Positions 27,858 to 51,583 of a DNA stretch of 64,000 bases are shown in pieces. Position 1 is the stretch's first letter, and each line of letters begins with the position of its first letter. A program made the translations under genes and the position numbers. Under the pieces are notes generated by a model, which saw only the letters and a list, made by a program, of their open reading frames with translations, was not told where the DNA came from and searched no databases. Source of the stretch: Candidatus Hodarchaeota archaeon (lineage in GTDB: Archaea; Asgardarchaeota; Lokiarchaeia; Sigyniarchaeales; SOKP01); contig JBHLKM010000009.1 in the NCBI GenBank assembly GCA_048886685.1, positions 96,001 through 160,000 on the forward strand. The letters run 5' to 3'.

Positions 27858-27944
27858 ATATAGTATTAAAAACTATTATACTATAAGAAGACTATAAGAA
27901 TTTAGTATGCTAAACATTAAGAAAACTCTTTCAAAAATGATATC

Positions 27945-31706: not shown

Positions 31707-31860
31707 ATAACAGAAAATAAGAAATTATTATATGAAGTTTTCTAATTACTTACTGAATCCTACTCTCGAGCAATACTGAAATATTAAAAAAAATTATACT
31801 TTTTAATAAAACACTTGTTTATTTAATTAATAGCATAGTTATAATAATTAACTTTCATTA

Positions 31861-33351
31861 TTGCATTGTATGATCAAATCTGTCTTAATTGCAAATCGTG
31901 GAGAGATTGCAGTTAGGGTCATTCGAGCCTGCCGGTCAAAAGACATTCAATCAATTGCGGTTTTTTCTGACACAGACAAAAATTCTCTCCATGTAAAAAT
32001 GGCAGATGAGGCTTACAACTTAGGGAATGAATCGGTTCAGAGCACTTATCTTAACATTCCAAAGCTGATTGAAGTAATTGAACGATCTAAAGCTGACGCA
32101 GTTCACCCAGGATATGGTTTTTTAAGTGAAAATGCAGAATTTGTTAGAAGAGTTACTAACCTTGGCAAAATCTTTATTGGACCAAGCCCAAGTACCATTG
32201 ATTTCCTCGGTAATAAGATTAAAGCAAAAATACTTGCAAAAAAGGTCAATTTGCCTGTTTTACCTGGTTCAGAAGGATTTATTAATAGTTTAGATGAAGC
32301 TAAATCAGTAGCAGATGAGATTGGATATCCGATAATAATTAAGGCTGCTTTTGGAGGAGGTGGTCGAGGAATGGAAATTGTTGAATCTGAGGAAAATATG
32401 GGTACTGCGTTAGAGAGCTGCCAATCAATGGGATTAAAGTTTTTTGGAAGAAAAGAAGTTTTTATTGAAAAGTCAATTACAGCACCTCGCCATGTAGAAA
32501 TTCAATTTATAGGAGATAATTTTGGTAATGTTGTCCATTTAGGAGATCGGGAATGCACTATTCAACGATCTCACCAAAAGCTTATTGAGGAAGCCCCTTC
32601 CTTCTTAACAAGAGATGAAATTACCAATTTAGGTGAAAGAACTTGTTTTTTGGCTCGTGAATTAAATTACTCAAATGTTGGGACGGCAGAATTTCTTTGG
32701 AAGGATGGTAACATCTACTTTAATGAAGTAAATCCAAGAATCCAAGTGGAGCATGTCGTTACAGAAATGGTTACTGGAATAGATTTGGTTGAAGAACAAA
32801 TAAACATTGCTTCGAACAAACTATTAAACTTTACTCAAGAGGAGATTTCATTACATGGACATGCAATAGAGTATAGGATAAATGCTGAAGATCCCCATAA
32901 CTCATTCTTTCCTCAACATGGAAAAATAACAAATTTAATAATTCCGGGAGGCCCAAAAGTACGTTTTGATAGCTATTTATACCCTAATTACGTTGTCCCT
33001 CATGATTTTGATTCATTAATAGGAAAACTAGTCGTATGGGGAAGGAATCGTAAAAGAGCAATCAACCTTTCTAAACATGCTCTTAAAGAATTAGTTATCT
33101 CAGGAATAAAGACGAATTTAGATATGCATAAAGTAATAGTTGAGACTTATGAGTTTAAAAAAGGTGAATTATCAACTGATTTCTTAAACAAAACAAATAT
33201 TACTCATAATTTAAAAGATTTAGAGAGAAAGAAATTAGCAGCAGTATTTCAATTGGTTAAACAATTTAATTTTTCAATTCAACCTGAAAAAAAACATAAG
33301 AAAAAATCTAATAAATGGCGAGATATCGCAAAAATAGAGCAATTAAGTTAA
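31861..33351 (+). CDS. accC: Biotin carboxylase subunit of acetyl/propionyl-CoA carboxylase
   Basis: VLIANRGEIA, HPGYGFLSEN, GGGGRGM, RECTIQR.HQKL, EVNPRIQVEH. Confidence 0.93.
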   Translation: MHCMIKSVLIANRGEIAVRVIRACRSKDIQSIAVFSDTDKNSLHVKMADEAYNLGNESVQSTYLNIPKLIEVIERSKADAVHPGYGFLSENAEFVRRVTNLGKIFIGPSPSTIDFLGNKIKAKILAKKVNLPVLPGSEGFINSLDEAKSVADEIGYPIIIKAAFGGGGRGMEIVESEENMGTALESCQSMGLKFFGRKEVFIEKSITAPRHVEIQFIGDNFGNVVHLGDRECTIQRSHQKLIEEAPSFLTRDEITNLGERTCFLARELNYSNVGTAEFLWKDGNIYFNEVNPRIQVEHVVTEMVTGIDLVEEQINIASNKLLNFTQEEISLHGHAIEYRINAEDPHNSFFPQHGKITNLIIPGGPKVRFDSYLYPNYVVPHDFDSLIGKLVVWGRNRKRAINLSKHALKELVISGIKTNLDMHKVIVETYEFKKGELSTDFLNKTNITHNLKDLERKKLAAVFQLVKQFNFSIQPEKKHKKKSNKWRDIAKIEQLS

Positions 33352-33387
33352 AAAGAGAAAAAATACCTAATAAAGAGATTGTTATCA

Positions 33388-33903
33388 TTATAAAACAACA
33401 TAATTTTCTTTCCCTTTTACTGTGGATACACTTTCAATTTTAACTAGCGGTTGATCTTGACCAACATCATCTTCTACATTTACAAAGATTTGCATTATTT
33501 TTCCTTTAATTGGGGATAATATCCGATTTTTCATTTTCATTGCCTCTAATATCAACAATAATTGATCCTTTTCAACAAATTCTTGTTCTTCAATATGGAT
33601 TTCCAAAATCTTTCCAGGAATGGGAGCATTTACGGTTTCTTCTTTAACTTGTGGATTTTCATTGTTACTATCTAAAGATTTTAAATAAGGTTTAATTTCA
33701 ATATCGATTTCTTCACCCTCTAAATATAGTACTCCATTGATATATTCCAAATTAAACTGACAATCTTCAAATGTTACTCGAAATAAATTTTCTGTTTCCT
33801 GAATAACTAAAGGAGTATAGATGTGGTCATCAACTTTTATTTTTCCATCATCTATCGGTCGAACAACATAAGTTCTTCCTCGGAATTTTACTTTTTTCAG
33901 CAT
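33388..33903 (-). CDS. accB: Biotin carboxyl carrier protein
   Basis: APIPG...LEAMKM biotinyl-Lys motif. Confidence 0.9.
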   Translation of the reverse strand: MLKKVKFRGRTYVVRPIDDGKIKVDDHIYTPLVIQETENLFRVTFEDCQFNLEYINGVLYLEGEEIDIEIKPYLKSLDSNNENPQVKEETVNAPIPGKILEIHIEEQEFVEKDQLLLILEAMKMKNRILSPIKGKIMQIFVNVEDDVGQDQPLVKIESVSTVKGKENYVVL

Positions 33904-33916
33904 ACTTGTTATCTTT

Positions 33917-34720
33917 TTAACTTGTTCTTATTGTTTTTACTAGATGAGAATCAAAGAAATCAATAAGATTTTCACACATTTGTTGAAAATGATTTTCATC
34001 TGTAAAGTTATGGTTAGCTCCATCAATTATATCAATTTTTTTATTTTCAGATTGAACCTTATTGAAAAGTTGGTGAAAACCATGTTCTGGAAATAAGACA
34101 TCCTTATTACCAGCGATTAAATAAAATGGTTTTAATAACTTATCAGCTAATCTAACAGGATTATATTGTCTCGTTTGTTCAGCATACTTTATTTTAAGAT
34201 CGCCATCTGGAAATCGCATTTCTTTATTGCGCGTTAAAGCTTTTATGAAAAACTTAAACAAGGGATTTTTTGGTATAATTTCAGTATTAAAAACAGGGGA
34301 ACGTATCGCAAGACATTGAACTCTTTTATCTCTTACAGCATGGCAAAAAGCCATTGCACCTCCAAAACTTTCACCTAACAAGCCAATTCTAAGAGGATCT
34401 ATTTCGGGATGATAGACTAATTGATTTATCACTTGTTCAATATTAGCTTGAGCATCATAATAAGTAAATATCCCCGTACTACCTCTAACACCTTGATGAT
34501 CATAAGTAAAATATGCTATATTATTATTAACAAAATGACATGCAAATCTCAGTTCATCTTCTTTAGGTGATTTTCCTGGCATTCCATTAACACGTATTAC
34601 TAATGGGAAACAAGTGTTTTTAGAGTTTTCAGGCTCTATAATATCAGGTAAATACAGGATACTCTGTAGGATTTCAGTACGAACCTCAATTTCTATCATT
34701 TCCTTTCTCATTAGTATCAC
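33917..34720 (-). CDS. Alpha/beta-hydrolase, candidate thioesterase/release enzyme
   Basis: GESFGG nucleophile, AGNKD Asp, GANHNF His; overlaps the megasynthase stop codon. Confidence 0.8.
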   Translation of the reverse strand: MILMRKEMIEIEVRTEILQSILYLPDIIEPENSKNTCFPLVIRVNGMPGKSPKEDELRFACHFVNNNIAYFTYDHQGVRGSTGIFTYYDAQANIEQVINQLVYHPEIDPLRIGLLGESFGGAMAFCHAVRDKRVQCLAIRSPVFNTEIIPKNPLFKFFIKALTRNKEMRFPDGDLKIKYAEQTRQYNPVRLADKLLKPFYLIAGNKDVLFPEHGFHQLFNKVQSENKKIDIIDGANHNFTDENHFQQMCENLIDFFDSHLVKTIRTS

Positions 34721-37700
34721 TGGATTATTGGTTTGTTTTTAAAAGGTTTAATCTCACAGTACGAAAGAACATATTTTTCAGAAAATTCAACCCGTAATTG
34801 TAGATCTTTAAGATTTCTATTGATGTCTAACAAGTCATTTTTGGATTTTAAGGTAAATTTATTGTATTTTTTATTATATTTCAATTCAATGTCTCGGAAA
34901 TTAATATTAAAGCCTTCCCCTATTGCTTTTGAGAAGGCTTCTTTCGCTGTCCAGTAGATTGTTCCCAGATAGGCATCGTCTAAAATAGTTTTTCTTTCTG
35001 ATTCAGTAAATACCTCCTTATAGAATGATGGGGATCGGGATTCAATTATCTCTAAATCAATGCCAACCAAATTTTTACTTATCATTGCTACTGAAAAATC
35101 ATTGGAATGACTTATAGAAAGATTAAGTGGAATTATTTTATTCTCTTTGTTTGAGTAGTAATATGGCTTACCTTTTTCATCCTTTTGAATTTCAAAGTCA
35201 TGATATGAACCATCAACAGCAATAATCCTACGATAACATTCTTTTGCGGCAATAATGCCAGAAAAATATTCAATTTTTCTTTTTATATTCCTAAAGCGCT
35301 TTGAGTTTTCTATCTCTGTTTCAGTCAGATAAGTTTCAAAAAATTTCGGATTTATTTGATATAGATCTTTTAGTTTTGCAATAGGTAGAACTTGAATTTC
35401 GTTTTTAATTTTATTATTCTTTAGGTGGTAATACTCTTTTAAGGTAGTTAGATAATCAGAGAGGTTATTTGAGAGGTTTACTGTAATTTGTGCATGGATG
35501 ATTTCTAGGTTTTCAATTTTCGCTATAATTTCTTGATCTTCATCTAAAATTACCGAGTTATAATAAGATCTCTCCTCGTCTTTTTTTAAGAATTTAGCTA
35601 CTATGTATTTTGGTCTTTGGTTTGATTTTATTTGAATAGAGGAGGCTTTTGAGGGAAGAGAGAGATGGTTATTTATGATGTAATCAAATAACGCTGCGGT
35701 TTGAAATACACATTCCATGGATAAGGGTTCAAATTGAAAATGATCCTCTTCCTCATTATTAATAATAGGAACTGTTGGAAGATCGATCTTTGTTACTATT
35801 TTTCCTTTCTCTAATTGAATAACTTCTTCTAGAACTTGAAATTTCTTCCCATGAAAGAAAAGCTCATAAATTTCAGTTTTATCAAGTAAAGGAATTAATG
35901 GATTTAAAATTAGATCTTTTTCCCATCTCATTTCTTTTACTAAATCATCGAACTGAGCATCGAAATGGTTTTTTATTAGTGGTTTTCCTTTTAGAACTGT
36001 GGGAAAAGTCTTTGATTGAAGTGATATCTTATTATTGGATTTATTAAATGTTAGTTCTACTTCTACTGACTTACCTACTGAAATTTTCAGGGGCGTGTGA
36101 AAATTAATATTTGAAATAGAGGTTAACACCTTATCGAACACTCGATGGTAGAATTCTGCGAATGTTTCTAGAGCCATTACACCAGGAAATACAGGTTTTT
36201 TTTGAATTTGATGATCAAGAAGATATGTGTCGAATTCAGAATTTATGGTGTTAAAACCAATTATATATTCAGATTGATAATTTATTTTTTCTAACATAGG
36301 ATATTCTTTTTTATCAATAACTTCCTCAATATCAAGCATTTCCTCAAAGATCCCTAACTTCCCCGCAATTATATATTCCCCAGTGAAGTTGTTTAATACT
36401 AAATTGGTAAATATCTTTATACCAGTTATTGAAGGAACAGGTGAAACTCCTGCTTGAGTAAGGATTTGTAAAGTGGAACCTTGAGTAGCCATACCAATAT
36501 CTGCCCAAGCTGTCCAATCAAAAGTTAAAAATGGGATATTGCGTTGGTTGAATTCCCAAGCCATACGCGATAAATACGCATTAGCAAATGCATAATCAAT
36601 TTGACCCTGATTCCCATAACGTCCAGCAATTGAGGAAAAAGTTACAAAATATTTGACGTCTTGAATCTTTATATATTTGAGAATTTTTGAAAACCCTCCA
36701 ACTTTAACATCAACAATTTTATGAGCCATATTTAAATTTTTCTTCAAGAAACTTTTTGATTCTTCTATCCCAGCACCATGGATAACAACTGTTATCTGAT
36801 TTTTAGTTTCTTCATTAATTGTTTGGAAGATGTTCTTCATTTTTTCATCATTAGTAACGTCTACTGCATAATATTGAACTGAAAGACCTTTTTTCTTCAA
36901 ATTTTCGATATTACGAAGAGTATCTAATTTGTCGAGGAATTTCTTCCATTCTCTGTTAATCATAACAGGAGTTACTTTCTCTAGTGTAGATTTCAATGAC
37001 TTAACCAATTCTTCCTTTTTCTCACTCAACATGTCCGGGGTGTATTGTAAATATTCTAAAAATGAATCATCGTACGGGCTTAATCCTAAAAGAATTAGTT
37101 GTGGTTTAGTATGGTTTGTTAATTCATCAATACAAGCAAAAGTTATTCCTTGTGCTCCTCCTGTAACCAATAATACATCTTCTTCTGTTATCGAAGAATA
37201 ATTCAATTTTGGGAGCTTTTCTACTTTTTTTCTTAATAATGTATAACGTACATTTTCCCTGTAGGCTATTTCCTCAAGTTTATCCCAACTCAAGAACTCT
37301 TGAGTAATCTGTCCTAAATTCATTGAAGAAATAAGCTTGATCGGAATCTGAAATTCGCGATTGATTGTTTTTATAAAAGCACCTATACTAGAAGCAAGGG
37401 GATTAGCTCCTTGTTTCCAACCGAAAGTAGTATCTGGAGAAATAACTAAGATTTTTTCTAATATTGATAAATTTAAAGATTGAAAAATGAGAAAAAGACT
37501 GTCGAAAATGTTTAAACTATCATTAATGGTATATTGACTATTATCTGGAATAACCAATATGAGTATCTTGAAATCTATATCAAATGGAAATTCACTATTA
37601 TTATTATTTAGATCTTTAACTAAATTTTCATTAACATCAACATTGAAAATTTGAACATTTAATCCAAAATTTTCAAAATCTTTGCTTAAGTTTTTGTAAT

Positions 37701-40700
37701 TTGATAATCCTGAGTTAATGTTAAGAATTAATGTATTAATATCCTTGTATTTCAGATTTTCCTTCGAGGGGAGCAATTTAAAAACTCGGGAAGGAACTAC
37801 TTTTGACACATAAATTTGGTCATCATTTTCATTTTCTGATTTTTCTTTTACCTCGCTGATATTTTTGACAGGTTCTAATTCCATATCAACTGATTGCGAT
37901 TTTTTATTGATGAACTGGATTACAAATTCAGTGATCTCATTAGGCGTACGGATGTCAGCTATGTTAATTTCAACATTATCTTCTAGTTTGTAATATTCAC
38001 GCAAGACTCCAAAGATTTCTGCTTGCTTTACTGTATCAATCCCCAAGTCTTCTTCCAAATCATAAGAATCATCGATATCAGTAAGGTCATAACCAGTTTT
38101 GTCAGCAATAATTTTTTTTACTAAATTTTTTACCTGATTTATATCATCAATTTCATTAGATTTTAATACAATACTTTGCTGTTTAATGCTAATATCTGTT
38201 TCCATATTCTGGTCATTTAAGAATTCTCGCATTTTAAGAATTATATTCTTAATACTGCCAAGTCCTACCAAATTTATTTCTGTGTCCTCTGAGATTTTCA
38301 AATCATTCCGAAGTTCTCCAAAAATCTCCGCTTGTTTGACAGTATCAATACCTAAATCCTCTTCTAAATCAAACTCAGGATCGATATCTTCAATATCGTA
38401 TCCTGTCTTTTTAGAAATGATTTCAATTAACTTATTTTCAAGTGATTTATTATCTAAACCCGAGGAACTATTACTAGAAACAATATCATGACCTAAAGAC
38501 TCATTGAGCATGTGAACGATATCATTTATAGTGCGATAGTCTGCTATATTGAATGAATCATCAATTTCAATTTTCCATTTTTCTCGGATTTCTCCGAAAA
38601 TCTCTGCTTGTTTGACAGTATCAATTCCAAGATCTTCCTCCAAATCATAGGTTTCTTCAATGTCTTCTGGATTATAACCGGTCTTTAAAGCGATGATTTT
38701 TTTGATCTCAACTATCATATCGATTTTACCAACCGAAATTGATTGCTGAGGGATTTCTGTTTCTTTTGGTGATTGAATTGTAGTAATTATAGCAGAAATA
38801 CGTTCTGTATTCATCTTTAAGACTCTACCATCCATGAATACTTGTGTCCCGCTCCCACCTACATTTTGAAGCCATTGTTCATAGTTTGGTTTGGTAAAAC
38901 GATTATCATATGATACTAAACGGAATAAGACAATGGCTAATTGTGAACCGAATCCAGCGGCAAAACGTAAAGCATATTTCTTTCGTTCTCTTACTCCTTT
39001 TGAAAAGTTGAAATTTGAATAGTTTGAATCTATCTTATTAAAATTCGCTATCGGGGGAATTTTTCCTTTCTCCATTGATTTAATTGCCACAGCTTCTTCA
39101 ATACCTGCACCCATCGCATGACCAGTATATCCCTTCGTATTAATTATAATCATATCATAAGCATTTTTACCAAATGTATTTTCTAATGCTCTTAATTCTG
39201 ATTCCGCACTTCCACCTCGAGCAGGGGAATAAGTTTCATGACTTACAAACATCCCTTCATTAGCCAATTCTCTTTTACTAATACCATGTACTTTTTCCAT
39301 CTTTAAAATAAAATCGTTAAGTCTTTGGGAAATATCATCCTTATCTAATCGTGTACCATGATAAGCGCTATTCCCAAAATAAGAACCAAGAATTTCTACA
39401 ATTGGTTTTACTCCTCGAGCTTCAGCTTCGGAATTTTGTTCAATAACAAATGCACTTGCTCCTGCACCTAATACAATTCCATTCCTTCCTTCTCCAAAGG
39501 GAAGTACTGCTTCCTCCCATCGAGATTTTGTTGTAGCGGCTCCACTTGCAATAAATCCTGCACCAATCCATTGAAAAAGGTTCTTACTTGTTACATTATC
39601 GGCAGTGATTACAACAACTCGTTTACATCTCCCAGTTCGAATCCAGTCTTCTGCAATACCTATTGCTTGAGGTGCAGAAGCACAAGCTGCATTAATAGAT
39701 GTATTTGGTCCTTTAGCTTTTATTAATTGAGCAAATTGAGAATGTCCCATAGATAAAACTCTAAATAAAAATGAGCGATTAAAATTTTCTACACTTTCCT
39801 CACTAGAATTTAATTGATTGAATTTAAAATTAGAGCACTGTTGAGAATCTTCTGCAAAATTATCGTATCCTGGAAATGCAGATGCAAAAATGATACCTGT
39901 ATCATCTTGTAATGATTCTGGTAAAGCCCAGTCACCAGATAATGTCTTACCCGTAGAGGTTTTAATAGTGCTACGAACTAATGGAATTCCCGCGTCTTTA
40001 AGTGCATCATATCCTGCACAAATTGCTAGTTGGAATGTAGTATCTAAAGCATTTAGGATTTTAGGATTAAGTTGATAATCCTCTGTCGGGTTAAAATCCC
40101 CCATCTGTCCTGCCAAGTGAATTACTTTAGAAATATCATCTATAGGCACAAATTTAGCATTACCATTAGGGGATTTTTCCAAACGAATTATATTTTTTTG
40201 ATATAATTGTTCTTGAAATTCACTACTTACCGATTCGATTAGATTAACTCCATCTAAAATATCATCGATATTTTTATCATCAAAAATTTTACGATTTTTG
40301 CCAGGAAGTCCAATACCTACACCAGTGATTACGACAGGTGTAGAATTAAGCAGTGATCCTTTCTTATCATATTTATTTTCAATTGAAATATGATATTTCT
40401 TAAGATAATTATGAAATCCTTGAATCATAACCGAAGACAAAAGTTCTTTTTGTTCTTCTAGAAATTCATTAAAAAATGGAAGTTGCTTTAATTTAGATAA
40501 GTCTTCATTCGAAATTAAAGAATTTTGATTTTTTTCAAGTGTAGGGGATTTTTTCGATATTTTTGGTTTTTGATCTGGAATAGCTGGTGGTTGAGTTTTG
40601 ATTTCATCAATGGGGCTAGCTGATTTTATACTACTGAACTTCTCAAAAATCTTTTGAATATGCTCTTCTTCAGAAGATTTTGGTGAAAGTGTAAAATCAA

Positions 40701-43700
40701 CCTCAATATCTTTATATTTTTTTAATATATCTTTTGTAAAAAAGAAGAGAGCCTTTTTTGGTCCGATTTCTATAAATTTTCGGCCCCCATTTTGATAAAT
40801 ATTCAAAATCTCATCAACCCATCTAACAGGGGATGTAATTTGCTTAAGAAGGATTGATTTTATTTTGTCAGGATTATCAGGATATATTTTGCCTGTTACA
40901 TTACTAAATACAGGTATTCTAGGAGATTTAAATTCTATTGTTTTCAAAAAGCTTTCCAATTTTTCTTCAGCGTGAGTGACAAATTTAGAATGAAATGCAT
41001 TTGACACGTTTAATTTTAGAGCTCGAATTTCTTTTTCTGAAAATACTTTCACTACAGATTCAACTGCCGATAACTCTCCTGATATGACCGTTTGAGATGT
41101 AGAGTTATAATTTGATATTGAAACATCATCAATTGATAGCTCATCTAAAGTTTTCTCAACAACTTCCGGTGATATAAATATCGCCGCCATAGAACATTGA
41201 ACACCAAGAGGTAACTTTGACATTGCTTCTCCCCTTTTGATTACAATTTTTAACCCATCTTCAAAACTCAATACTCCTGCTGTAGTTAAAGCCACGAATT
41301 CCCCTAAGCTATGACCTCCAACAATTCCCGGAGTTAAATCTTTAGTTTTAAAAAGTTGCAATAGAGCCATTTCAACTGAATAAATAGCCGGTTGAGTGAA
41401 CTCCGTTTGTTGTAATCTATTGGAATTTTCTTCTTGTGATAAATTTGGAGATCCAAAAATTACTTCTAGTAGGTCAAAACCACCAAAATCTTTACATATA
41501 TCGTTTGCTTTATCAAGTGTATCTTTGACGACTTGGAACTTTTCGTATAATTCCCTTGACATCCCTACATATTGACTTCCTTGACCACTAAAAAGAAAAC
41601 ATAAATCGGTTGAATACGGAGTACTCAAATGATCAAGTTGAGGTTCAAAATGATCATACATATGTTCTTCACATAGAGGATACGATCTAGCTTTTTCTAT
41701 CGATGATATCTCGTAGGATTGAGGTAAGAATTCTTCGAGGATTACATGATAATTTGCCCCTCCAAATCCGAATGATGAAACACCGGCTCTTCTTATTCCT
41801 GTTTTGGGAGTTAACCACTCAATTGGTTCCGTATTAACATAATAAGGAGCCGTATCCCAATTTATTGTGGGATTAAGAGTTGAAATGTTAATAGATGGAG
41901 GAATAATTTTATTATGTAATGCTAATACTGTTTTAATAATACCAGCTATACCTGCAGCACTTTTGAGGTGTCCAATTTGACTTTTTATTGACCCAATTGC
42001 TAGTTTTTGCTTTTCATTTCTTTCAGAAAACACATCGTCTAGCACATTTAATTCAGTAGCATCTCCAACGACTGTAGATGTTCCATGGCATTCAAGATAT
42101 TGAATGTCTGATGGGCTTATATTACTATTCTTTAAAGCCCGTAATATGGCTAATTTTTGTCCATCTGGATTGGGTGCAGTAATGCCCTTACCTTTTCCAT
42201 CTGAAGAACCCCCATACCCCATAATAATCGCATAAATTTTGTTCTCATCACGTAATGCATCTTCAAGGCGTTTTAAAACTAAAAATCCAGCTCCTTCTCC
42301 CATAACAAACCCGTTAGCACGAGCATCAAAGGGATATGAGCCATCTTCAGACAAAGCACCAATTTTACAGAATTTAATGTATGTTTGAGGATCCATTGAA
42401 CTATCGACCCCCCCTACAAGGACTGTATCATAATCCTTAACTAGTAACCCATTAACAGCTGTATCAATTGCGGCTAAACTAGAAGCACAAGCAGCATCAA
42501 TTGTCATGCTTTTACCAGTTAAATTAAACACGTTTGCGACTCTACCAGCAATTATGTTTGACAATTCACCTGGCATAGTATCTTCGTTAATCACTGGAAT
42601 TTGATTAATTATTTTATCTTCAAGGAAATTTAGAAGATTATTTTTTTCTTCTTTCTTCAGAATCATCAGAGAGCTTGCTTCATTGATTCTATATTTGATT
42701 TCATTAAAAAGTATACGTTTATTGCTGAGACGTTGTTTATCTCCCCCTAAGGAGTTTCCAACGATAATTGCAATGGGCAAACGTTTTTTCCCGTCAAAAG
42801 GATACCCCGCATCAAGAAGTGCTTCTTTTGCTGTAATAATAGCCCATATCTGAACTAAGTCCATCCTTTCTGCCATTTTTGGAGGAATTCGATATTTAAT
42901 AGATTTAAATTCAAATTTTTTCACAAATCCACCAATTTTTGTATATGATTTATCGGGGGATGAATGATCTTTATCATAAAAGATTTCAGGTTCCCATCTG
43001 TCTATGGGAACTTCTGTAATCGAATAATTTTTATTCACAATATTTTTCCAGAATTGTGGAATGTCCTCAGCATCTGGAAAGAGACCTCCTAAGCCAATGA
43101 TGGCTATTTTATTTACTATGGACAACTTTTTTTGTGATTTTTTATCCTTTTCCATTATTACTTGACCTAAAGAATCTTTTATTGTTTGATTCGATATTTT
43201 TTTGATAAATTTGTAACCCCCTTCAATTATATCATAATGTATTTGGGGGATTGTTCTAATTGTATTTTGTAAGGAAATAGAATCACCTGTCATAAATGCA
43301 CCTTTAACTACTTGGTCTTTTACTGAGATCGAAGTAAATTGGGACTTCTCGCTCCCTTCTATATGATTATCATTCCAAATCTCAGCTCTGGAAGCTATTC
43401 TTAGTGCACCTAAATTGTCTTTCTCATACAATTCTTTTCTTTGCGAAATAGAAATACCTTGCGCTTTTCGCAAAAATTCTTGCTTAATAGTGTGATGGGA
43501 AAATTCGGTAGAGATTACCCTTGCTCGAGTATTTACAGTTGTGCCAATCACTTTTGTAGATGAATTATTAAGTAATAATTCTTGATAAACTGGGGATAAA
43601 GCTCTAGTTGTCACAATTTCTTCGCTTAAGAGGTAAGCAGTTCCCATTTGAATACCAGGATTTATAATATCTAAATGATTTCCAATCATACCTCCCAACA

Positions 43701-45288
43701 TAGCTGAACTTACTTCATCAATAATCCCACCAGCAAAAATAACATTTAATTTCTCGGTGAATATATCTTTTTCCTTATCCAAATATTCTAAAATACACTC
43801 CCAAAGAATGAAAGATGATAATGTTCCAAAATGACCTCCACACTCACTACCTTCTAATATCATATAATCGAGGTTACTTTTTATGGCTTTTTTAAACATA
43901 GAAAGCACAGGTGTGTGTATTAAGACCTTATTGCCTAAATTCTTAACTTGAACACCAAGATCAATAGTACCAGCGGCAATTAAGGTGATTTCGGGACCAT
44001 ACTTTTTAATACATCTAAGATGTTCATCCCTACGAGTCTTTACAGCTTCTAAACCTATAATACCACAACCGTATGGCTTCTTTGATAAATCTTTCACACT
44101 AATGTTTGATAAGAGTTCAACTGTTTCAGTTGATAATAATCCACCTAAAGCTAATATTGGAAGGGCACCATTATCTGCTACTTTTCTAGCAAATTCTAAT
44201 TTATCAGAGATATTCGCCATTGGCCCTTGAATAATGGGATATGTAATGTTTAGTTGTTTCGCAAATTCAGAATTTTTGGCAAAAGGCCAATGTTCTATAC
44301 TATTTTGAATCTGATTAGAGATTATTTTAACTAAATCATTTAGAAATTTTTTTAAATCGCCGAACTTGGCTAAAATATAGTTCGCAAAACAAATACCATG
44401 ATCACTTGGTAAAAAAGAATGGTTGGGCTCTGTATCAGAATATATATGACAATGATTTTGAAATTTGGTAATTCTATGAAGAAATTCATGTTTGAGAGTA
44501 AAATAATCATTGTTAAATTCTTCATTTAATTTTGAAAAATCTTTTTGCTCAACTTCCTTTATTGATCGAATTGATTTATTAGCCAATTTTCCAATCAAAC
44601 GATAATTATATCGTAAAGTTTCATGTACAAGATAAAAATCATTCTCTTCAATTGTCTTAATATAATTTTTAAATTTTTGATTTAAAGGACATTCAGGTAG
44701 CAAGAATAACTGACTTTCTAATACGATTCCTAAAGTCCCACCAATAAATGCTGAACATATGTTATATACCCCAAAACCTCCCTGAATTATGAATGGAAGA
44801 CCTGCTTTTTGGAATTCTTGAATGAGTATAAAAGTATTTTTAGTTCCGACTAAACCACCTGCTTCATTCCCTTTAACAAGAAAAAAGTCTGCCCATTCCG
44901 CGGTTTCATAAGCTTCTTCTAAGTATAACACTTCGGAAAGAATTAATTTTGAATTTTTCTGCATTATAAGAATTTCCTTATAATTTGGAGAGAATGCACA
45001 GATGATAATTGGAATTAGTTCTTGAAATTCGAGTGCATAAAGGACTTCTTGAGAAGAAATCCGGATACCCCATATGTGATCAGAAGATAAAGATGATTTT
45101 AATTTATTAAAAAGTATTTTACATTGATCAATATTAAGTCCTTCAAAATCTACTAAACCAATTCCCCCGGTCTGGCATATTTGAACTGAAAGTGAAGGAT
45201 CTGTTATACCTTTTGGTGAATAACCCCAAATAGGAATTCTGTTTTTTAAAATTTGCTGGATATTCTTTTTCTTTTTCATAAAAATCAA
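34717..45288 (-). CDS. Single-chain iterative type I PKS/fatty acid synthase (Pfa-like): ER-like, ER, KS, AT, KS, ACP, ACP, ACP, KR, DH, PPTase
   Basis: FabK/PfaD-like barrel (PIIQGPM, EGSECGGH, FAGGI, QMGTAYL); KS1 (DAACASS, HGTST, IGHLK); AT (FSGQGSQ, GHSLGE, NAFHS); KS2 (NAACASA, HETYS, TGHAMG); 3x DLGIDTVKQAE; KR (VTGGAQGIT, GQIDYAFAN); DH (LLDHQIQKKPVFPG); Sfp-type PPTase (GKP, SISHS, VGIDLE, WTAKEAFSK). Confidence 0.93.
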   Translation of the reverse strand: MIFMKKKKNIQQILKNRIPIWGYSPKGITDPSLSVQICQTGGIGLVDFEGLNIDQCKILFNKLKSSLSSDHIWGIRISSQEVLYALEFQELIPIIICAFSPNYKEILIMQKNSKLILSEVLYLEEAYETAEWADFFLVKGNEAGGLVGTKNTFILIQEFQKAGLPFIIQGGFGVYNICSAFIGGTLGIVLESQLFLLPECPLNQKFKNYIKTIEENDFYLVHETLRYNYRLIGKLANKSIRSIKEVEQKDFSKLNEEFNNDYFTLKHEFLHRITKFQNHCHIYSDTEPNHSFLPSDHGICFANYILAKFGDLKKFLNDLVKIISNQIQNSIEHWPFAKNSEFAKQLNITYPIIQGPMANISDKLEFARKVADNGALPILALGGLLSTETVELLSNISVKDLSKKPYGCGIIGLEAVKTRRDEHLRCIKKYGPEITLIAAGTIDLGVQVKNLGNKVLIHTPVLSMFKKAIKSNLDYMILEGSECGGHFGTLSSFILWECILEYLDKEKDIFTEKLNVIFAGGIIDEVSSAMLGGMIGNHLDIINPGIQMGTAYLLSEEIVTTRALSPVYQELLLNNSSTKVIGTTVNTRARVISTEFSHHTIKQEFLRKAQGISISQRKELYEKDNLGALRIASRAEIWNDNHIEGSEKSQFTSISVKDQVVKGAFMTGDSISLQNTIRTIPQIHYDIIEGGYKFIKKISNQTIKDSLGQVIMEKDKKSQKKLSIVNKIAIIGLGGLFPDAEDIPQFWKNIVNKNYSITEVPIDRWEPEIFYDKDHSSPDKSYTKIGGFVKKFEFKSIKYRIPPKMAERMDLVQIWAIITAKEALLDAGYPFDGKKRLPIAIIVGNSLGGDKQRLSNKRILFNEIKYRINEASSLMILKKEEKNNLLNFLEDKIINQIPVINEDTMPGELSNIIAGRVANVFNLTGKSMTIDAACASSLAAIDTAVNGLLVKDYDTVLVGGVDSSMDPQTYIKFCKIGALSEDGSYPFDARANGFVMGEGAGFLVLKRLEDALRDENKIYAIIMGYGGSSDGKGKGITAPNPDGQKLAILRALKNSNISPSDIQYLECHGTSTVVGDATELNVLDDVFSERNEKQKLAIGSIKSQIGHLKSAAGIAGIIKTVLALHNKIIPPSINISTLNPTINWDTAPYYVNTEPIEWLTPKTGIRRAGVSSFGFGGANYHVILEEFLPQSYEISSIEKARSYPLCEEHMYDHFEPQLDHLSTPYSTDLCFLFSGQGSQYVGMSRELYEKFQVVKDTLDKANDICKDFGGFDLLEVIFGSPNLSQEENSNRLQQTEFTQPAIYSVEMALLQLFKTKDLTPGIVGGHSLGEFVALTTAGVLSFEDGLKIVIKRGEAMSKLPLGVQCSMAAIFISPEVVEKTLDELSIDDVSISNYNSTSQTVISGELSAVESVVKVFSEKEIRALKLNVSNAFHSKFVTHAEEKLESFLKTIEFKSPRIPVFSNVTGKIYPDNPDKIKSILLKQITSPVRWVDEILNIYQNGGRKFIEIGPKKALFFFTKDILKKYKDIEVDFTLSPKSSEEEHIQKIFEKFSSIKSASPIDEIKTQPPAIPDQKPKISKKSPTLEKNQNSLISNEDLSKLKQLPFFNEFLEEQKELLSSVMIQGFHNYLKKYHISIENKYDKKGSLLNSTPVVITGVGIGLPGKNRKIFDDKNIDDILDGVNLIESVSSEFQEQLYQKNIIRLEKSPNGNAKFVPIDDISKVIHLAGQMGDFNPTEDYQLNPKILNALDTTFQLAICAGYDALKDAGIPLVRSTIKTSTGKTLSGDWALPESLQDDTGIIFASAFPGYDNFAEDSQQCSNFKFNQLNSSEESVENFNRSFLFRVLSMGHSQFAQLIKAKGPNTSINAACASAPQAIGIAEDWIRTGRCKRVVVITADNVTSKNLFQWIGAGFIASGAATTKSRWEEAVLPFGEGRNGIVLGAGASAFVIEQNSEAEARGVKPIVEILGSYFGNSAYHGTRLDKDDISQRLNDFILKMEKVHGISKRELANEGMFVSHETYSPARGGSAESELRALENTFGKNAYDMIIINTKGYTGHAMGAGIEEAVAIKSMEKGKIPPIANFNKIDSNYSNFNFSKGVRERKKYALRFAAGFGSQLAIVLFRLVSYDNRFTKPNYEQWLQNVGGSGTQVFMDGRVLKMNTERISAIITTIQSPKETEIPQQSISVGKIDMIVEIKKIIALKTGYNPEDIEETYDLEEDLGIDTVKQAEIFGEIREKWKIEIDDSFNIADYRTINDIVHMLNESLGHDIVSSNSSSGLDNKSLENKLIEIISKKTGYDIEDIDPEFDLEEDLGIDTVKQAEIFGELRNDLKISEDTEINLVGLGSIKNIILKMREFLNDQNMETDISIKQQSIVLKSNEIDDINQVKNLVKKIIADKTGYDLTDIDDSYDLEEDLGIDTVKQAEIFGVLREYYKLEDNVEINIADIRTPNEITEFVIQFINKKSQSVDMELEPVKNISEVKEKSENENDDQIYVSKVVPSRVFKLLPSKENLKYKDINTLILNINSGLSNYKNLSKDFENFGLNVQIFNVDVNENLVKDLNNNNSEFPFDIDFKILILVIPDNSQYTINDSLNIFDSLFLIFQSLNLSILEKILVISPDTTFGWKQGANPLASSIGAFIKTINREFQIPIKLISSMNLGQITQEFLSWDKLEEIAYRENVRYTLLRKKVEKLPKLNYSSITEEDVLLVTGGAQGITFACIDELTNHTKPQLILLGLSPYDDSFLEYLQYTPDMLSEKKEELVKSLKSTLEKVTPVMINREWKKFLDKLDTLRNIENLKKKGLSVQYYAVDVTNDEKMKNIFQTINEETKNQITVVIHGAGIEESKSFLKKNLNMAHKIVDVKVGGFSKILKYIKIQDVKYFVTFSSIAGRYGNQGQIDYAFANAYLSRMAWEFNQRNIPFLTFDWTAWADIGMATQGSTLQILTQAGVSPVPSITGIKIFTNLVLNNFTGEYIIAGKLGIFEEMLDIEEVIDKKEYPMLEKINYQSEYIIGFNTINSEFDTYLLDHQIQKKPVFPGVMALETFAEFYHRVFDKVLTSISNINFHTPLKISVGKSVEVELTFNKSNNKISLQSKTFPTVLKGKPLIKNHFDAQFDDLVKEMRWEKDLILNPLIPLLDKTEIYELFFHGKKFQVLEEVIQLEKGKIVTKIDLPTVPIINNEEEDHFQFEPLSMECVFQTAALFDYIINNHLSLPSKASSIQIKSNQRPKYIVAKFLKKDEERSYYNSVILDEDQEIIAKIENLEIIHAQITVNLSNNLSDYLTTLKEYYHLKNNKIKNEIQVLPIAKLKDLYQINPKFFETYLTETEIENSKRFRNIKRKIEYFSGIIAAKECYRRIIAVDGSYHDFEIQKDEKGKPYYYSNKENKIIPLNLSISHSNDFSVAMISKNLVGIDLEIIESRSPSFYKEVFTESERKTILDDAYLGTIYWTAKEAFSKAIGEGFNINFRDIELKYNKKYNKFTLKSKNDLLDINRNLKDLQLRVEFSEKYVLSYCEIKPFKNKPIIQ
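37915..38720 (-). repeat. Three tandem ACP domains within the megasynthase
   Basis: KTGY.......DLEEDLGIDTVKQAEIFG repeated three times; boundaries approximate. Confidence 0.9.
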
Positions 45289-45300
45289 CCAGTTTTATAG

Positions 45301-46872
45301 TTATACCGGGGAGATCCCATGTTTTCTTCTAGGAGTCTGTTCACGTTTAGTTTCAAAAAAGTTCAGATATTTAATGATCTCGCTGCGAGTTTCATGTGGA
45401 AAGATTACTTTATCTATATGTCCTTTTTCAGCGACTTGATAAGGATTTGAAAATTCTTTTTTATAGCATTCAGTGAAATCCTTTAATATAGCATCGGGAT
45501 CTTCTACATCCTTTAAATGATTTCGAAACAGAATCTTACATGCACCTTCAGCACCCATCACGGCAATTTGGGCCGAATTCCATGCGATATTAACATCTGC
45601 TCCCAATTCTTTTGAATTCATGACAATATAAGCACCGCCATAAGCTTTACGAATAATAACAGTAATTTTTACGATTGTAGCTTCTGAATATGCATATAAC
45701 ATTTTAGCACCATGCCTGATAATTCCAGAGTGTTCTTGTTTAACGCCAGGCATAAATCCCGGAACGTCTACTAGGGTCAAAAGAGGTATATTAAAAGCAT
45801 CACAGAATCTAATAAATCTTGTCGCTTTATCCGATGCATTGTAATCTAGAGCTCCACTAAGGAACATAGGTTGATTCGCAATTATACCCACAGTCTGATT
45901 TTCTATTTTCCCGAACCCAATTATTATATTTTTTGCCCAATCTGGAAAAAGTTCTAAAAATGAATCTTGATCCACTATTACATTAATTACACTTTTCATG
46001 TTATATGGTTCATCTTCATTTTTTGGTACTATTTGTTCTAATAAATAGGGATCTTCACCATAAATTTGCTTTAAAGAGTGAGGAATATCATCTAAATTAT
46101 TTGACGGGATATATGATAATAGTTTCTTGGTGAATTCTAATGCTTCTTCTTCAGTATCTAAGGCTTTATGACATACCCCTGAAATAGTCGAATGAACTTC
46201 TGAACCTCCTAATTCTGAAAAAGAGGTATTTTCTCCTGTTACTGCATTTACTACTTGAGGTCCTGTTATAAACATATAAGCGTTCTTTCCACCCATAATA
46301 ATAAAATCTGTTAATGCTGGACTATAAACTGCCCCTCCAGCAGAAGTGCCTAAGATAACAGAAATTTGAGGGATAATTCCTGAAGCTCGAACATTTCGAT
46401 AAAAAATATCCCCTAACCCGTCAAGGGCATCAACTCCTTCTTGAATACGAGCACCTCCCGAATCTATTAATCCAATTAAAGGACAACCCATTTTTAAGGC
46501 TAAATCCATGATTTTACAAATTTTCTGAGCATGAGCTTTCCCTATAGTCCCTCCCAATACTGTAAAATCTTGACTATAAATGAATACTCTTCGACCCTCT
46601 ATTGTACCATAACCAGTTATTACCCCATCTCCAAGAAATTTCTTTTTTTCCATACCAAATTTATTACACTGATGCTTAACAAATGAATCAATTTCTACAA
46701 AGGTTCCGAAATCTACCAGAAATTCGAGTCTTTCCCTAGCAGTTAATTTACCCTTTTTATGTTGAATATCAATATGATCTTGTCCACCCCCTAATTTGGA
46801 CTCATTTCGTAACTCTTGTAGCTTCTCTGTCAATTCAAAGTTATCTTCTGATTTACCATCCTTTAAAATCAT
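45301..46872 (-). CDS. Acyl-CoA carboxylase carboxyltransferase subunit (PccB/AccD-type single chain)
   Basis: GKLTARER, QDFTVLGG, DSGGARIQEG, AGGAVYSPALTD, DVPGFMPG, RKAYGGAY. Confidence 0.95.
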   Translation of the reverse strand: MILKDGKSEDNFELTEKLQELRNESKLGGGQDHIDIQHKKGKLTARERLEFLVDFGTFVEIDSFVKHQCNKFGMEKKKFLGDGVITGYGTIEGRRVFIYSQDFTVLGGTIGKAHAQKICKIMDLALKMGCPLIGLIDSGGARIQEGVDALDGLGDIFYRNVRASGIIPQISVILGTSAGGAVYSPALTDFIIMGGKNAYMFITGPQVVNAVTGENTSFSELGGSEVHSTISGVCHKALDTEEEALEFTKKLLSYIPSNNLDDIPHSLKQIYGEDPYLLEQIVPKNEDEPYNMKSVINVIVDQDSFLELFPDWAKNIIIGFGKIENQTVGIIANQPMFLSGALDYNASDKATRFIRFCDAFNIPLLTLVDVPGFMPGVKQEHSGIIRHGAKMLYAYSEATIVKITVIIRKAYGGAYIVMNSKELGADVNIAWNSAQIAVMGAEGACKILFRNHLKDVEDPDAILKDFTECYKKEFSNPYQVAEKGHIDKVIFPHETRSEIIKYLNFFETKREQTPRRKHGISPV

Positions 46873-47287
46873 AATAATCCCATATTTATTTAAATAAACA
46901 AGTAATTATTTTTATCAAAAGTTAATTTATAAAATTATTACTTGAAGACACACTATTATTAGTATTACGGGTTTGACCATATATTATTAAAAATTCTTCT
47001 TTTTTTTAATAAACCTATAATCGAGATTTTTATGAGAAGATAATTAATAATTTATTGAATTAATAAACTAATTTCAGATTTTAATATAATTTAATTCAAT
47101 TTCTAAATTTGAACGTTTATAAATTTTCAATTAACTTATATAGTAAGACTTTTTTCGAGAATTATCCATTTTTTTATTTTTTGAATTAATTTAATAAAAA
47201 ATCAGACAATAAATTTGAAAACAATTTATATTAACCCGTGTATTTATTTTATTAATCTCTCTTTTAAGCAGCAGATTAGAATAAAAT

Positions 47288-48043
47288 ATGTTCTTAAAAA
47301 TAAAGATTGTTCACATTGACGAAACTAAATCTACCCAAGACAGTATAACCGAATACCTTAAAAATGATTACTATTCGTCACTATTGTTAGTTGCGAAAAC
47401 GCAAACAAAAGGTCGTGGAAGAAAACAAGATGACTGGCATTCTCCAGAGGGAGGATTTTGGGCAACTCTGGGATTAACCACTTCATTAACTTTGAATGAA
47501 TCACAATTAGCTTTGTTCCACTATTTTACAGCAACATTATTATCACGAATTATTAAGGAAGAATATGATTTACAAGTTCAAATTAAGTGGCCTAATGACA
47601 TATTATATGAAAATAGAAAACTAGCAGGAATCTTAATCGATTATGTAATATGTTCCCAAGAAAATTATATACTGATTGGAACGGGAGTAAATTTAAATAA
47701 TTCAAGTAATGAGATGCCGGAAAGTTTAAAATCATCAGCAATTTCAATAAAAGATATATTACATAAACCAGTATCAATTGATACTTTTGCTCTAAAAATT
47801 TGTTTTTATGCAAACGAATATTATTCACCAATTATAGAATGTAATCAAAAAAAAATTCTAGATTTAATTCAAGAATATAATCAAAACTCTCGAATTTTCG
47901 GTAAAGATGCTATTCTTGATGATTTACAAAAATATTATTGCCATGGAATTAATAAAGAAGGATTATTGCAATTTTCGAATAAAAACTCAAAGTTAAATTT
48001 AAAAATTGATGATTTAACAAGGATAAAAAAGATAATTTTCTGA
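47288..48043 (+). CDS. birA: Biotin--protein ligase (no HTH domain)
   Basis: STQD, QTKGRGR, W.SPEGG, KWPND, KLAGIL. Confidence 0.93.
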   Translation: MFLKIKIVHIDETKSTQDSITEYLKNDYYSSLLLVAKTQTKGRGRKQDDWHSPEGGFWATLGLTTSLTLNESQLALFHYFTATLLSRIIKEEYDLQVQIKWPNDILYENRKLAGILIDYVICSQENYILIGTGVNLNNSSNEMPESLKSSAISIKDILHKPVSIDTFALKICFYANEYYSPIIECNQKKILDLIQEYNQNSRIFGKDAILDDLQKYYCHGINKEGLLQFSNKNSKLNLKIDDLTRIKKIIF

Positions 48044-51134: not shown

Positions 51135-51349
51135 AATATTTCTTTTAATCTTGAGTTAATCTTTCCTTTAATATTACTGTCAATAATGAGAAAACCACTT
51201 TGTTCATCTAATTGACTAAATAATAATAATGTATTTTAGGATAAAATTTAATAAAAAATACTAATAATCTTGAATAATTATAAATTTAATATATATCAAG
51301 AACTTAATAAGCTCTGTATCTTAATGTTATAATTTTAAACAGATTTTAT

Positions 51350-51583
51350 ATGATTATTGAAATTATCGAAGATTTATGCAAAGGCTGTGAATATTGTATA
51401 GAAATTTGTCCAGAAAAGATTTTTAATAAATCAAAAAAGCTAAATCAGAGAGGATACTCAATACCAGAAATTAAAAATTCTGATTCTTGCACATACTGTA
51501 AGAGATGTGAGTTAATATGTCCAGAAATGGCAATAAATATTGAAAAGGAGGCAAATAATAATGCAGACTCCCACGGTAGATGA
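51350..51583 (+). CDS. korD: 2x[4Fe-4S] ferredoxin (delta subunit of 2-oxoacid oxidoreductase)
   Basis: CKGCEYCIEICP and CTYCKRCELICP. Confidence 0.85.
   Translation: MIIEIIEDLCKGCEYCIEICPEKIFNKSKKLNQRGYSIPEIKNSDSCTYCKRCELICPEMAINIEKEANNNADSHGR

What the first reader, a model, noticed from the sequence alone, without database searches (positions are those of the whole stretch)
31861..48043. Complete ACP-dependent fatty-acid/polyketide synthesis cluster in an Asgard-type archaeal genome
Seen: a 3523-aa synthase with every reductive-cycle domain and its own PPTase, apparently co-transcribed with carboxyltransferase, hydrolase and BCCP, and flanked by biotin carboxylase and biotin ligase. Asgard-type genes (Rab-like GTPases, roadblock-GTPase, archaeal LeuRS) lie on both sides, and the cluster looks as AT-rich as the host. 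Known: archaea build isoprenoid ether lipids and generally lack ACP-based FAS; this domain set resembles bacterial Pfa-type secondary lipid synthases. Inference: this archaeon can make long acyl chains de novo from malonyl-CoA, which bears on the archaeal-to-eukaryotic membrane transition. I cannot tell whether this locus has been reported.
Basis: partly seen in the sequence, partly recalled or inferred. Interest (0 to 1): 0.92.

Follow-up and report, generated by a model that had tools for sequence, protein, structure and literature searches.

The report
Asgard fatty-acid megasynthase gene cassette
A Loki-group Asgard archaeon carries a real, intact gene cassette for one giant bacterial-style enzyme that should build fatty chains from scratch, which archaea are usually said to lack; it is not the ancestor of the eukaryotic enzyme, but it makes the question of fatty-acid making in eukaryotes' archaeal relatives testable.

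Summary
Observation confirmed. A 3,523-aa ORF reads pseudo-ER, FabK-type ER, KS1, AT, KS2, three ACPs, KR, DH, PPTase, with catalytic residues conserved. It lies among a carboxyltransferase, hydrolase, BCCP, biotin carboxylase and biotin ligase. It is not chimeric: depth is flat, contigs bridge both borders, and the flanking pepF and thiolase genes are adjacent in congeners lacking the cassette. Two features this finding omitted: all three ACPs have Thr where phosphopantetheine normally attaches to Ser, and KS2 is an intact FabF-like enzyme, not a chain-length factor. It belongs with the uncharacterised bacterial 'Type R/S' secondary lipid synthases. It is patchy in Lokiarchaeia (10/52 in this genus) and sister to Heimdallarchaeaceae copies, so probably transferred between Asgard classes. 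It occurs in 53/59 genomes of five Heimdallarchaeia families, which all have PlsY, mostly FakA, and almost never a detectable GGGP synthase. This genome keeps its ether-lipid genes. Most likely product: reduced long acyl chains from malonyl-CoA; untested. No link to eukaryotic FAS was found. A 2020 paper noted one such Heimdall cluster; this scan found the system before on other Asgard DNA.

The parts
31861..33351 (+). Biotin carboxylase subunit of an acyl-CoA carboxylase
   Evidence: Pfam Biotin_carb_N, CPSase_L_D2, Biotin_carb_C; single copy in the genome; next to the synthase in Loki and Heimdall loci
33388..33903 (-). Biotin carboxyl carrier protein (EAMKM motif)
   Evidence: PF00364; motif; single copy
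33917..34720 (-). Alpha/beta hydrolase, likely the chain-releasing thioesterase (Ser118-Asp207-His237)
   Evidence: PF12146; G-x-S-x-G, Asp207 and His237 conserved in at least 20 of 21 aligned copies; overlaps the synthase stop by 4 bp. Thioesterase role is inferred.
34717..45288 (-). Megasynthase, 3523 aa: pseudo-ER, ER, KS1, AT, KS2, ACP x3, KR, DH, PPTase
44284..45276 (-). Degenerate first FabK-like barrel (pseudo-ER); lacks the GGH histidine
   Evidence: 25% identical to the ER over 152 aa, E 5e-5; His position variable among homologues
43198..44283 (-). FMN TIM-barrel enoyl reductase (FabK/PfaD type), His486
   Evidence: best solved relatives are FabK-type reductases; His in 157/158 homologues; replaced by an adjacent FabI gene in Kariarchaeaceae clusters
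41725..43113 (-). KS1, type I/Pfa-like ketosynthase, Cys934-His1068-His1107
40675..41604 (-). Acyltransferase, GHS(1327)LG and AFH motif of malonyl-specific type
   Evidence: Ser, Arg and AFH essentially invariant in 209 homologues; malonyl assignment from known AT fingerprints (own knowledge)
38869..40323 (-). KS2, FabF-like ketosynthase with intact Cys1869-His2017-His2057
   Evidence: triad in 209-210 of 210 homologues; best solved relatives FabF by sequence and by fold (model pLDDT 92.9, TM 0.75)
37921..38715 (-). Three tandem ACP domains, each DLGIDT with Thr (2224, 2316, 2419) at the phosphopantetheine site
   Evidence: Thr2224 sits at the start of helix II in the model; the only ACP domains found in the genome
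36346..37188 (-). Ketoreductase (Tyr2899, Asn2903)
35479..36303 (-). PKS-type double hot-dog dehydratase (His3026, Glu3192, Gln3196)
   Evidence: PF21089, PF14765; conserved
34750..35397 (-). C-terminal two-lobed (Sfp-size) phosphopantetheinyl transferase
   Evidence: PF01648, PF22624; GxDxE and WxxKEA invariant in about 148 homologues; the only PPTase found in the genome
45301..46872 (-). Carboxyltransferase subunit, first gene of the putative operon
   Evidence: PF01039; present in exactly the 10 of 52 genus genomes that have the synthase; directly upstream of the synthase in every Asgard locus examined
47288..48043 (+). Biotin-protein ligase, divergent from the operon
   Evidence: TIGR00121 above cut-off; single copy
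29916..31706 (-). Left host flank: oligoendopeptidase F (not part of the cassette)
   Evidence: abuts the thiolase in cassette-free congeners
48050..49279 (-). Right host flank: archaeal-type thiolase (not part of the cassette)
   Evidence: found in 37/52 genus genomes, mostly without the synthase

Best explanation
A self-sufficient iterative type I acyl-chain synthase cassette. Shown: the genes, domains, conserved active sites, co-occurrence and native position. Inferred mechanism: (1) the ligase biotinylates BCCP, and BC + CT make malonyl-CoA; (2) the cis PPTase puts phosphopantetheine on the ACP threonines; (3) the AT loads malonyl; KS1 and KS2 condense, most likely dividing the work by chain length or between priming and elongation; (4) KR, DH and the FabK-type ER reduce fully each cycle, giving saturated long chains, as no FabA-type isomerase is present; (5) the adjacent hydrolase releases free fatty acid. 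In this Lokiarchaeon it is an accessory cassette, acquired from a Heimdallarchaeaceae-related source, working beside the ether-lipid pathway; released acids could reach lipids through its PlsY-like and tandem PlsC-like acyltransferases.
For: All catalytic residues near-invariant in 150-210 homologues. CT and synthase co-occur 10/10 and are both absent from the other 42 congeners; the carboxylase is the genome's only biotin system found. Where the fused ER is missing (Kariarchaeaceae) a FabI-like gene lies directly downstream and a FabH-like gene upstream, so full reduction is selected for. KS2 folds like FabF. The only ACPs and the only PPTase found in the genome are in this chain; the site is always a hydroxyl residue (679 Thr, 14 Ser motifs, many from close relatives; all four Thr codons used), with mixed S-T-S arrays in Heimdallarchaeum. 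Loki copies group with Heimdallarchaeaceae (SH-aLRT 99-100), and a Heimdallarchaeia-only clade is rejected (p-AU 1e-38). Shulse & Allen proposed core-FAS duty for the related Type S in D. autotrophicum (PMC3098273).
Against: No member of the family has a known product. Thr phosphopantetheinylation has no precedent in the papers searched, and from memory the E. coli ACP Ser36Thr mutant is not a substrate of AcpS (paper not held). Characterised Pfa-like relatives with PKS-type DH often make specialised long or oxygenated chains (PMC13291983). This genome lacks PlsX, FakA and DegV hits and has only a weak GpsA-family hit, so the route into membranes is open. Kariarchaeaceae clusters examined lack the adjacent hydrolase. 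The cultured MK-D1 has no synthase.
Confidence: 0.6

Rival explanations
1. Same assembly line, but the product is a specialised lipid: a very long (C20+), hydroxy, keto or methyl-branched chain, or two chains joined by KS2, used outside the bulk membrane.
For: A second, invariant, divergent active KS (HETY and RGGS motifs) suggests a step beyond simple elongation. PKS-type DH and KR. Bacterial carriers such as Chloroflexota, Acidobacteriota and Actinomycetota generally also have FAS II (own knowledge). Patchy distribution in Lokiarchaeia. The CT's best NCBIfam match is the MmdA/PCC-type subfamily, below cut-off, so methylmalonyl-CoA is possible.
Against: Malonyl-type AT fingerprint; no tailoring, transport or type III PKS genes in any Asgard cluster examined; near-universal in five Heimdallarchaeia families together with PlsY and FakA/DegV, which looks like housekeeping.
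Confidence: 0.27
2. This is the archaeal precursor of eukaryotic type I fatty-acid synthase, inherited through the Asgard host.
For: Occurs in Heimdallarchaeia, probably since early in the class (family-sorted clades); shares with fungal FAS a FMN-barrel ER and a C-terminal PPTase.
Against: Animal and fungal FAS are not among the 60 best solved relatives of KS1; fungal FAS is not hit by the ER; animal FAS ranks below bacterial PKS for KR. Domain order differs from both. No eukaryote among named homologues. Absent from all 24 genomes of f16/f17 (the single f16 hit is a FabF on a 3.7-kb contig). I could not place eukaryotic FAS in a tree.
Confidence: 0.04
3. The Thr-ACPs cannot be modified, so the cassette is inactive or works without phosphopantetheine.
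For: Canonical carrier proteins use Ser; S36T ACP is reported inactive with E. coli AcpS (from memory).
Against: Thr is kept across two domains of life with all four codons; PPTase, AT and both KS active sites are invariant; the ORF is intact in dozens of genomes.
Confidence: 0.05
4. Assembly chimera or bacterial contig mis-binned as Asgard.
For: Bin contamination is estimated at 8.4% and no 16S gene is assembled.
Against: Flat depth and bridging contigs; empty site in congeners; 67-86% identical orthologues in other Lokiarchaeia; same cluster beside the proteasome-exosome-L37ae operon in a 4.36-Mb Loki assembly and in both closed Heimdallarchaeum genomes.
Confidence: 0.01

Closest known systems
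'Type R' and 'Type S' secondary lipid synthases (Shulse & Allen 2011, PMC3098273): Koribacter, Solibacter, Elusimicrobium, Roseiflexus; Desulfobacterium autotrophicum
   Same: KS-MAT-second KS-ACP(n)-KR core, associated PPTase, and an ACC gene in one cluster; Roseiflexus, Acidobacteria and Elusimicrobia proteins are 44-48% identical in KS2 and share the Thr ACP motif where ACPs are covered. Products unknown.
   Different: Here ER, DH and PPTase are fused into one chain (the same full order occurs in Desulfomonilia); the second KS, called CLF in 2011, has an intact triad; a complete carboxylase, biotin ligase and hydrolase travel with it; that paper has no archaea and does not mention threonine.
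PKS cluster in a Shark Bay Heimdallarchaeota MAG (Chen et al. 2020, PMC7472256)
   Same: KS domains nearest to PUFA synthases in a Heimdall bin; very likely the same family (not checked by sequence).
   Different: One bin, KS-level only, read as possible antifungal or PUFA-like metabolite; no architecture, carboxylase, Thr ACP, distribution or Lokiarchaeia copy.
PUFA synthase PfaA-E (Shewanella, Moritella) and HglE/ArsA-type synthases
   Same: KS-MAT-tandem ACP-KR-DH logic, FabK-type ER like PfaD, best NCBIfam match TIGR02813 (907 bits).
   Different: Below the 1010 cut-off; no KS-CLF pair, no FabA-type DH/isomerases, second KS inserted between AT and ACPs, Thr ACPs, cis PPTase.
ACP-independent archaeal FAS complex of Sulfolobus (bioRxiv 10.1101/2024.07.05.601840)
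   Same: De novo fatty-acid synthesis in archaea; KT/DUF35 pairs are common in Asgard.
   Different: CoA-based, thiolase-driven, separate subunits; that paper states archaea seem to encode neither complete FAS I nor FAS II and nearly all lack ACP and ACP synthase.
Fungal/CMN FAS I and animal FAS I
   Same: One-chain reductive cycle; fungal FAS also has an FMN-barrel ER and a terminal PPTase (own knowledge).
   Different: Different domain order and KS lineage; no MPT or MaoC dehydratase (fungal), no MDR-type ER or fused TE (animal).

Membership tests
Type R/S secondary lipid synthase (Shulse & Allen 2011) | Core order KS-MAT-(KS-like)-ACP(3-6)-KR in one protein | tested here: met
Type R/S secondary lipid synthase (Shulse & Allen 2011) | Second KS-like domain is a chain-length factor (catalytically dead) | tested here: not met
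   Cys-His-His intact in 209-210/210 homologues, bacterial ones included; the 2011 label looks like a mis-annotation of the family rather than a difference of this member
Type R/S secondary lipid synthase (Shulse & Allen 2011) | Associated PPTase | tested here: met
   present, fused in cis rather than as a downstream gene
Type R/S secondary lipid synthase (Shulse & Allen 2011) | Sequence kinship with Roseiflexus, Acidobacteria, Elusimicrobia and Desulfobacteraceae proteins | tested here: met
   the exact type strains' proteins were not themselves retrieved
PUFA synthase (PfaA-E) | PfaA above TIGR02813 cut-off | tested here: not met
   907 bits against 1010
PUFA synthase (PfaA-E) | PfaC-type KS-CLF with FabA-like dehydratase/isomerase domains | tested here: not met
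   no FabA Pfam hit in the cluster; no second synthase gene in the genome
Canonical ACP | Ser at the start of helix II carrying phosphopantetheine | tested here: not met
   Thr in all three domains at that position
Canonical ACP | Covalent phosphopantetheinylation | not testable with these tools
   needs mass spectrometry
Fungal/CMN FAS I | Order AT-ER-DH(MaoC)-MPT-ACP-KR-KS and its KS lineage | tested here: not met
Animal FAS I | KS-MAT-DH-ER(MDR)-KR-ACP-TE with a single ACP | tested here: not met
Enediyne PKSE | KS-AT-ACP-KR-DH-PPTase without ER, with hot-dog thioesterase (from memory) | tested here: not met
   terminal PPTase shared, but ER, second KS, tandem ACPs and an alpha/beta hydrolase differ
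Primary (membrane) fatty-acid synthase | Product incorporated into glycerophospholipids | not testable with these tools
   acyltransferase genes present, but PlsX, FakA and DegV not found in this genome
Asgard (Lokiarchaeia) chromosome | Host genes on both flanks, contiguous in relatives, closest orthologues in Promethearchaeota | tested here: met
   LeuRS tree not built; no 16S assembled

The most novel reading that the evidence does not exclude
In Heimdallarchaeia outside the Hodarchaeales this synthase is the primary fatty-acid source: it carries chains on threonine-linked phosphopantetheine, the hydrolase frees them, FakA/FakB make acyl-phosphate and multiple PlsY paralogues build fatty-acyl glycerolipids, largely replacing isoprenoid ether lipids. 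Living archaea would then have crossed the lipid divide, and some Lokiarchaeia, like this one, would have gained the cassette on top of ether lipids and hold mixed membranes.
Probability: 0.22. Interest if true: 0.93.

Novelty: new variant of a known kind. Interest (0 to 1): 0.74.

Why it matters
Recent papers state that archaea lack complete FAS I/II and nearly all lack ACP, and a 2026 Asgard review still lists their lipids as unknown. Here is a complete, single-cassette, ACP-dependent candidate in about 68 of 398 Asgard species, two of them closed genomes from enrichments, so 'can Asgard archaea make fatty acids and ester lipids?' becomes a cloning and lipidomics question. Independently, a family-wide Thr attachment site with its own PPTase would be new carrier-protein chemistry, and an active FabF-like KS inside a type I chain is an unstudied design. 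It does not, on present evidence, explain where eukaryotic FAS came from.

Tried and rejected
Chimera or contamination: rejected. Carboxylase as a catabolic propionyl-CoA carboxylase serving the nearby methylmalonyl-CoA mutase: disfavoured, since it is absent from all 42 synthase-free congeners. Right-flank thiolase, B12 radical SAM, ETF and acyl-CoA dehydrogenase as parts of the system: rejected, as they occur without the synthase and vary among synthase loci. PlsC as the obligatory partner: rejected, absent from f13 (0/31) and f18 (0/12), where the synthase is near-universal (PMC8813620 also notes Heimdallarchaeum lacks it). PlsX: not found in five genomes. Missing GGGP synthase as proof of no ether lipids: not accepted, because MK-D1, reported to have isoprenoid lipids (PMC9385802), also gives no PF01884 hit, and CarS and UbiA-family genes persist. 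PPTase-ACP complex prediction: no verdict. No RNA holder listed. A low-depth joint 31542-47171 with a 21-base side in two runs was treated as spurious. Asgard monophyly of the synthase: neither shown nor rejected (support 77-98 by method; p-AU 0.71); no outgroup, so the direction between bacteria and Asgard is not resolved. 16S search empty. Ten literature searches found no description of the architecture, the DLGIDT motif or Thr modification; subscription papers are not covered; two papers on ACP Ser-to-Thr were not held. Labels f16/f17 = Hodarchaeales, f18 = Gerdarchaeales and G135 = Ca. Harpocratesius repetitus are inferred, not read from records; f13, f15, G015, G016 and G143 rest on named proteins.
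Full report
What is there. The large ORF (34717-45288, minus strand) reads: a degenerate FabK-like barrel, an intact FabK-like enoyl reductase, KS1, AT, KS2, three ACPs, KR, a PKS-type dehydratase and a PPTase. Carboxyltransferase, synthase, hydrolase and BCCP follow each other at 12, -4 and 13 bp; biotin carboxylase converges from the left and biotin ligase diverges on the right. Each is single-copy in the genome. Catalytic residues of KS1, AT, KS2, KR, DH, ER and PPTase are near-invariant in 150-210 homologues, while the first barrel lacks the ER histidine. The hydrolase keeps a Ser-Asp-His triad.

It is native. GC and tetranucleotide content match the genome. Depth is flat over both borders in two runs, and contigs bridge each border (one study, possibly the source). 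In congeners without the cluster, the left flank pepF abuts the right flank thiolase, so the 16-kb block is a discrete cassette between host genes. Its closest relatives are Promethearchaeota proteins at 67-86% identity, including one of Ca. Lokiarchaeum sp.. The same cluster sits beside the proteasome-exosome-L37ae genes in a 4.36-Mb Loki assembly and in the closed genomes of Ca. Heimdallarchaeum aukensis and endolithica.

Two features this finding did not mention. First, all three ACPs read DLGIDT: threonine replaces the serine that carries phosphopantetheine, at the start of helix II in a confident model. Across retrieved homologues there are 679 Thr and 14 Ser motifs, many from close kin; all four Thr codons are used; Heimdallarchaeum has mixed Ser-Thr-Ser arrays and a few Kariarchaeaceae-like proteins only Ser. 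These are the only ACP domains, and this the only PPTase, found in the genome. The simplest reading is that this PPTase modifies threonine; I found no precedent in the open literature and could not test it. Second, KS2 keeps Cys-His-His in essentially every homologue and resembles FabF by sequence and fold, so it is not a dead chain-length factor.

Family. The same core occurs in Desulfobacterota, Chloroflexota, Acidobacteriota, Elusimicrobiota, Spirochaetota, Actinomycetota, Myxococcota and Thermoplasmatota. This matches the Type R and S 'secondary lipid synthases' of Shulse & Allen 2011, whose products are unknown and one of which was proposed as a core FAS (PMC3098273). Desulfomonilia have the identical full domain order. 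It scores below the PfaA cut-off and lacks PfaC-type parts. Animal and fungal FAS are not among the closest solved relatives of KS1, ER or KR, and no named homologue is eukaryotic.

Distribution in Asgard. Of 398 species, 70 match KS1-AT-KS2, one being a stray FabF and one a short fragment. Five Heimdallarchaeia families account for 53 of 59 genomes (f12 1/1, f13 27/31, f14 2/3, f15 11/12, f18 12/12); f16 and f17, which I infer to be Hodarchaeales, have none in 24; Lokiarchaeia have it patchily (this family 13/133 with this genome, this genus 10/52, f3 3/14); the 156 genomes of other classes have none. The carboxyltransferase is present in exactly the same 10 genus members and precedes the synthase in every Asgard locus examined. 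In trees of KS1+AT+KS2 the Loki copies form a clade (100) joined to Heimdallarchaeaceae (99-100), and holding Heimdallarchaeia together without Loki is rejected (p-AU 1e-38; tested after the first tree was seen). With the patchy Loki distribution this points to transfer from a Heimdallarchaeaceae-related source. Monophyly of all Asgard copies is neither shown nor rejected, and without a root the bacterial-archaeal direction is open.

How it most likely works. Malonyl-CoA from the dedicated carboxylase is loaded by a malonyl-type AT onto self-activated ACPs; two ketosynthases condense; KR, DH and ER reduce fully; the hydrolase releases the acid. That full reduction matters is supported by Kariarchaeaceae clusters, which lack the fused ER but have a FabI-like gene directly downstream and a FabH-like gene upstream. 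With no FabA-type isomerase the default product is saturated. Chain length and the role of KS2 are unknown; a specialised long or joined lipid is the main rival.

Where the product could go. PlsY is in all 59 genomes of the synthase-rich Heimdallarchaeia families (mostly three copies in f13, 4-8 in f18) and adjoins the cluster in both Heimdallarchaeum genomes. FakA is in 49/59, DegV/FakB has 9-11 copies in the f13 and f18 genomes tested, and FakA-DegV-PlsY form a run in f18. That is a complete route from free fatty acid to lysophosphatidic acid without PlsX. A GGGP synthase match is found in only 2 of these 59 (similar with TIGR01769) against nearly all other Asgard. This is suggestive but not proof: MK-D1 also gives no match although isoprenoid lipids are reported for it, CarS persists, PlsC is missing from f13 and f18, FakAB could serve scavenging, and kin are not independent. 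The present genome differs: it has GGGPS, DGGGPS and GGR in one run, two PlsY-like and one tandem PlsC-like protein, but no FakA or DegV hit. Here the cassette is an addition to an archaeal lipid pathway.

Novelty. In print: the bacterial family (2011), one Heimdall cluster judged by its KS domains (PMC7472256), PlsY/PlsC in Asgard (PMC6431249, PMC6737245). Not found in ten searches of open papers: the one-chain architecture in archaea, its distribution, the Thr ACP, the active KS2, the link to FakAB-PlsY. Recent papers still say archaea lack FAS I/II and ACP. This scan has described the same system before in Heimdall genomes and the Thr ACP in another Asgard genome; those notes are unchecked leads, and I retested the points used.

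Verdict. Real, intact, native and widespread; a new variant of a known but uncharacterised kind. De novo acyl-chain synthesis is likely (about 0.85 for some acyl product, 0.6 for plain reduced fatty acid). The eukaryote link is indirect: a testable case of Asgard archaea approaching the lipid divide, not the source of eukaryotic FAS.

Noticed in passing
L047:8566-10224, L058:9835-11472, L072:9452-10942, L073:9666-11081, L074:7919-9583: Stand-alone KS2 paralogues (about 470-560 aa) away from the cluster in several f12, f13 and f15 genomes; KS2 can exist as a free protein, a handle on its function.
   Followed up: partly
L041:4999-17539 (Ca. H. aukensis): The synthase is split into 1506- and 2653-aa ORFs with overlapping KS1-AT content, a local duplication or assembly artefact; the sister genome has one 3515-aa ORF.
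   Followed up: no
L043:1925-2761, L060:17926-18717, L043:16398-17348: FabI-like enoyl reductase downstream and FabH-like gene upstream of the ER-less Kariarchaeaceae synthases.
   Followed up: yes
L097:179-2151 and L083:1429-2166 (G082:C6): FakA-DegV-PlsY gene run in f18; 4-8 PlsY per f18 genome and 11 DegV in G082.
   Followed up: partly
L112:6175-8710 (G000:C13): Two tandem PlsY-like proteins of about 400 aa with a 200-aa C-terminal part that has no Pfam match.
   Followed up: no
G143 (Promethearchaeum syntrophicum MK-D1), G135, G138: No PcrB/GGGPS-family match in these Promethearchaeaceae genomes although MK-D1 is reported to have isoprenoid lipids; an alternative first prenyl transferase may exist. 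G135 also gave no hit to this genome's DGGGPS.
   Followed up: partly
L075:8301-23063 (GCA_049602735.1): A Thermoplasmatota genome has the same synthase family with carboxyltransferase, BioY, biotin carboxylase and BCCP; these copies branch apart from the Asgard ones.
   Followed up: partly
L063:7366-21835 (Desulfobacula toluolica): The Type S-like homologue has two N-terminal KS domains, no fused PPTase, and a PlsC-type acyltransferase nearby.
   Followed up: no
window 20715-29849: Repeated module of Rab-like GTPase genes and divergent winged-helix/TPR genes next to pepF, with long AT-rich gaps.
   Followed up: no
window 6031-8175: 714-aa protein with two InhA-like MAM domains and no other family match.
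   Followed up: no
window 50025-58718: B12 radical SAM, 2-oxoacid:ferredoxin oxidoreductase, ETF, acyl-CoA dehydrogenase and thiolase block; the cassette often sits near such acyl-CoA genes in congeners but its neighbours vary.
   Followed up: partly
L065 (G057:C50, 3.7 kb): The only f16 match is a FabF-type gene on a short contig, possibly bin contamination.
   Followed up: partly
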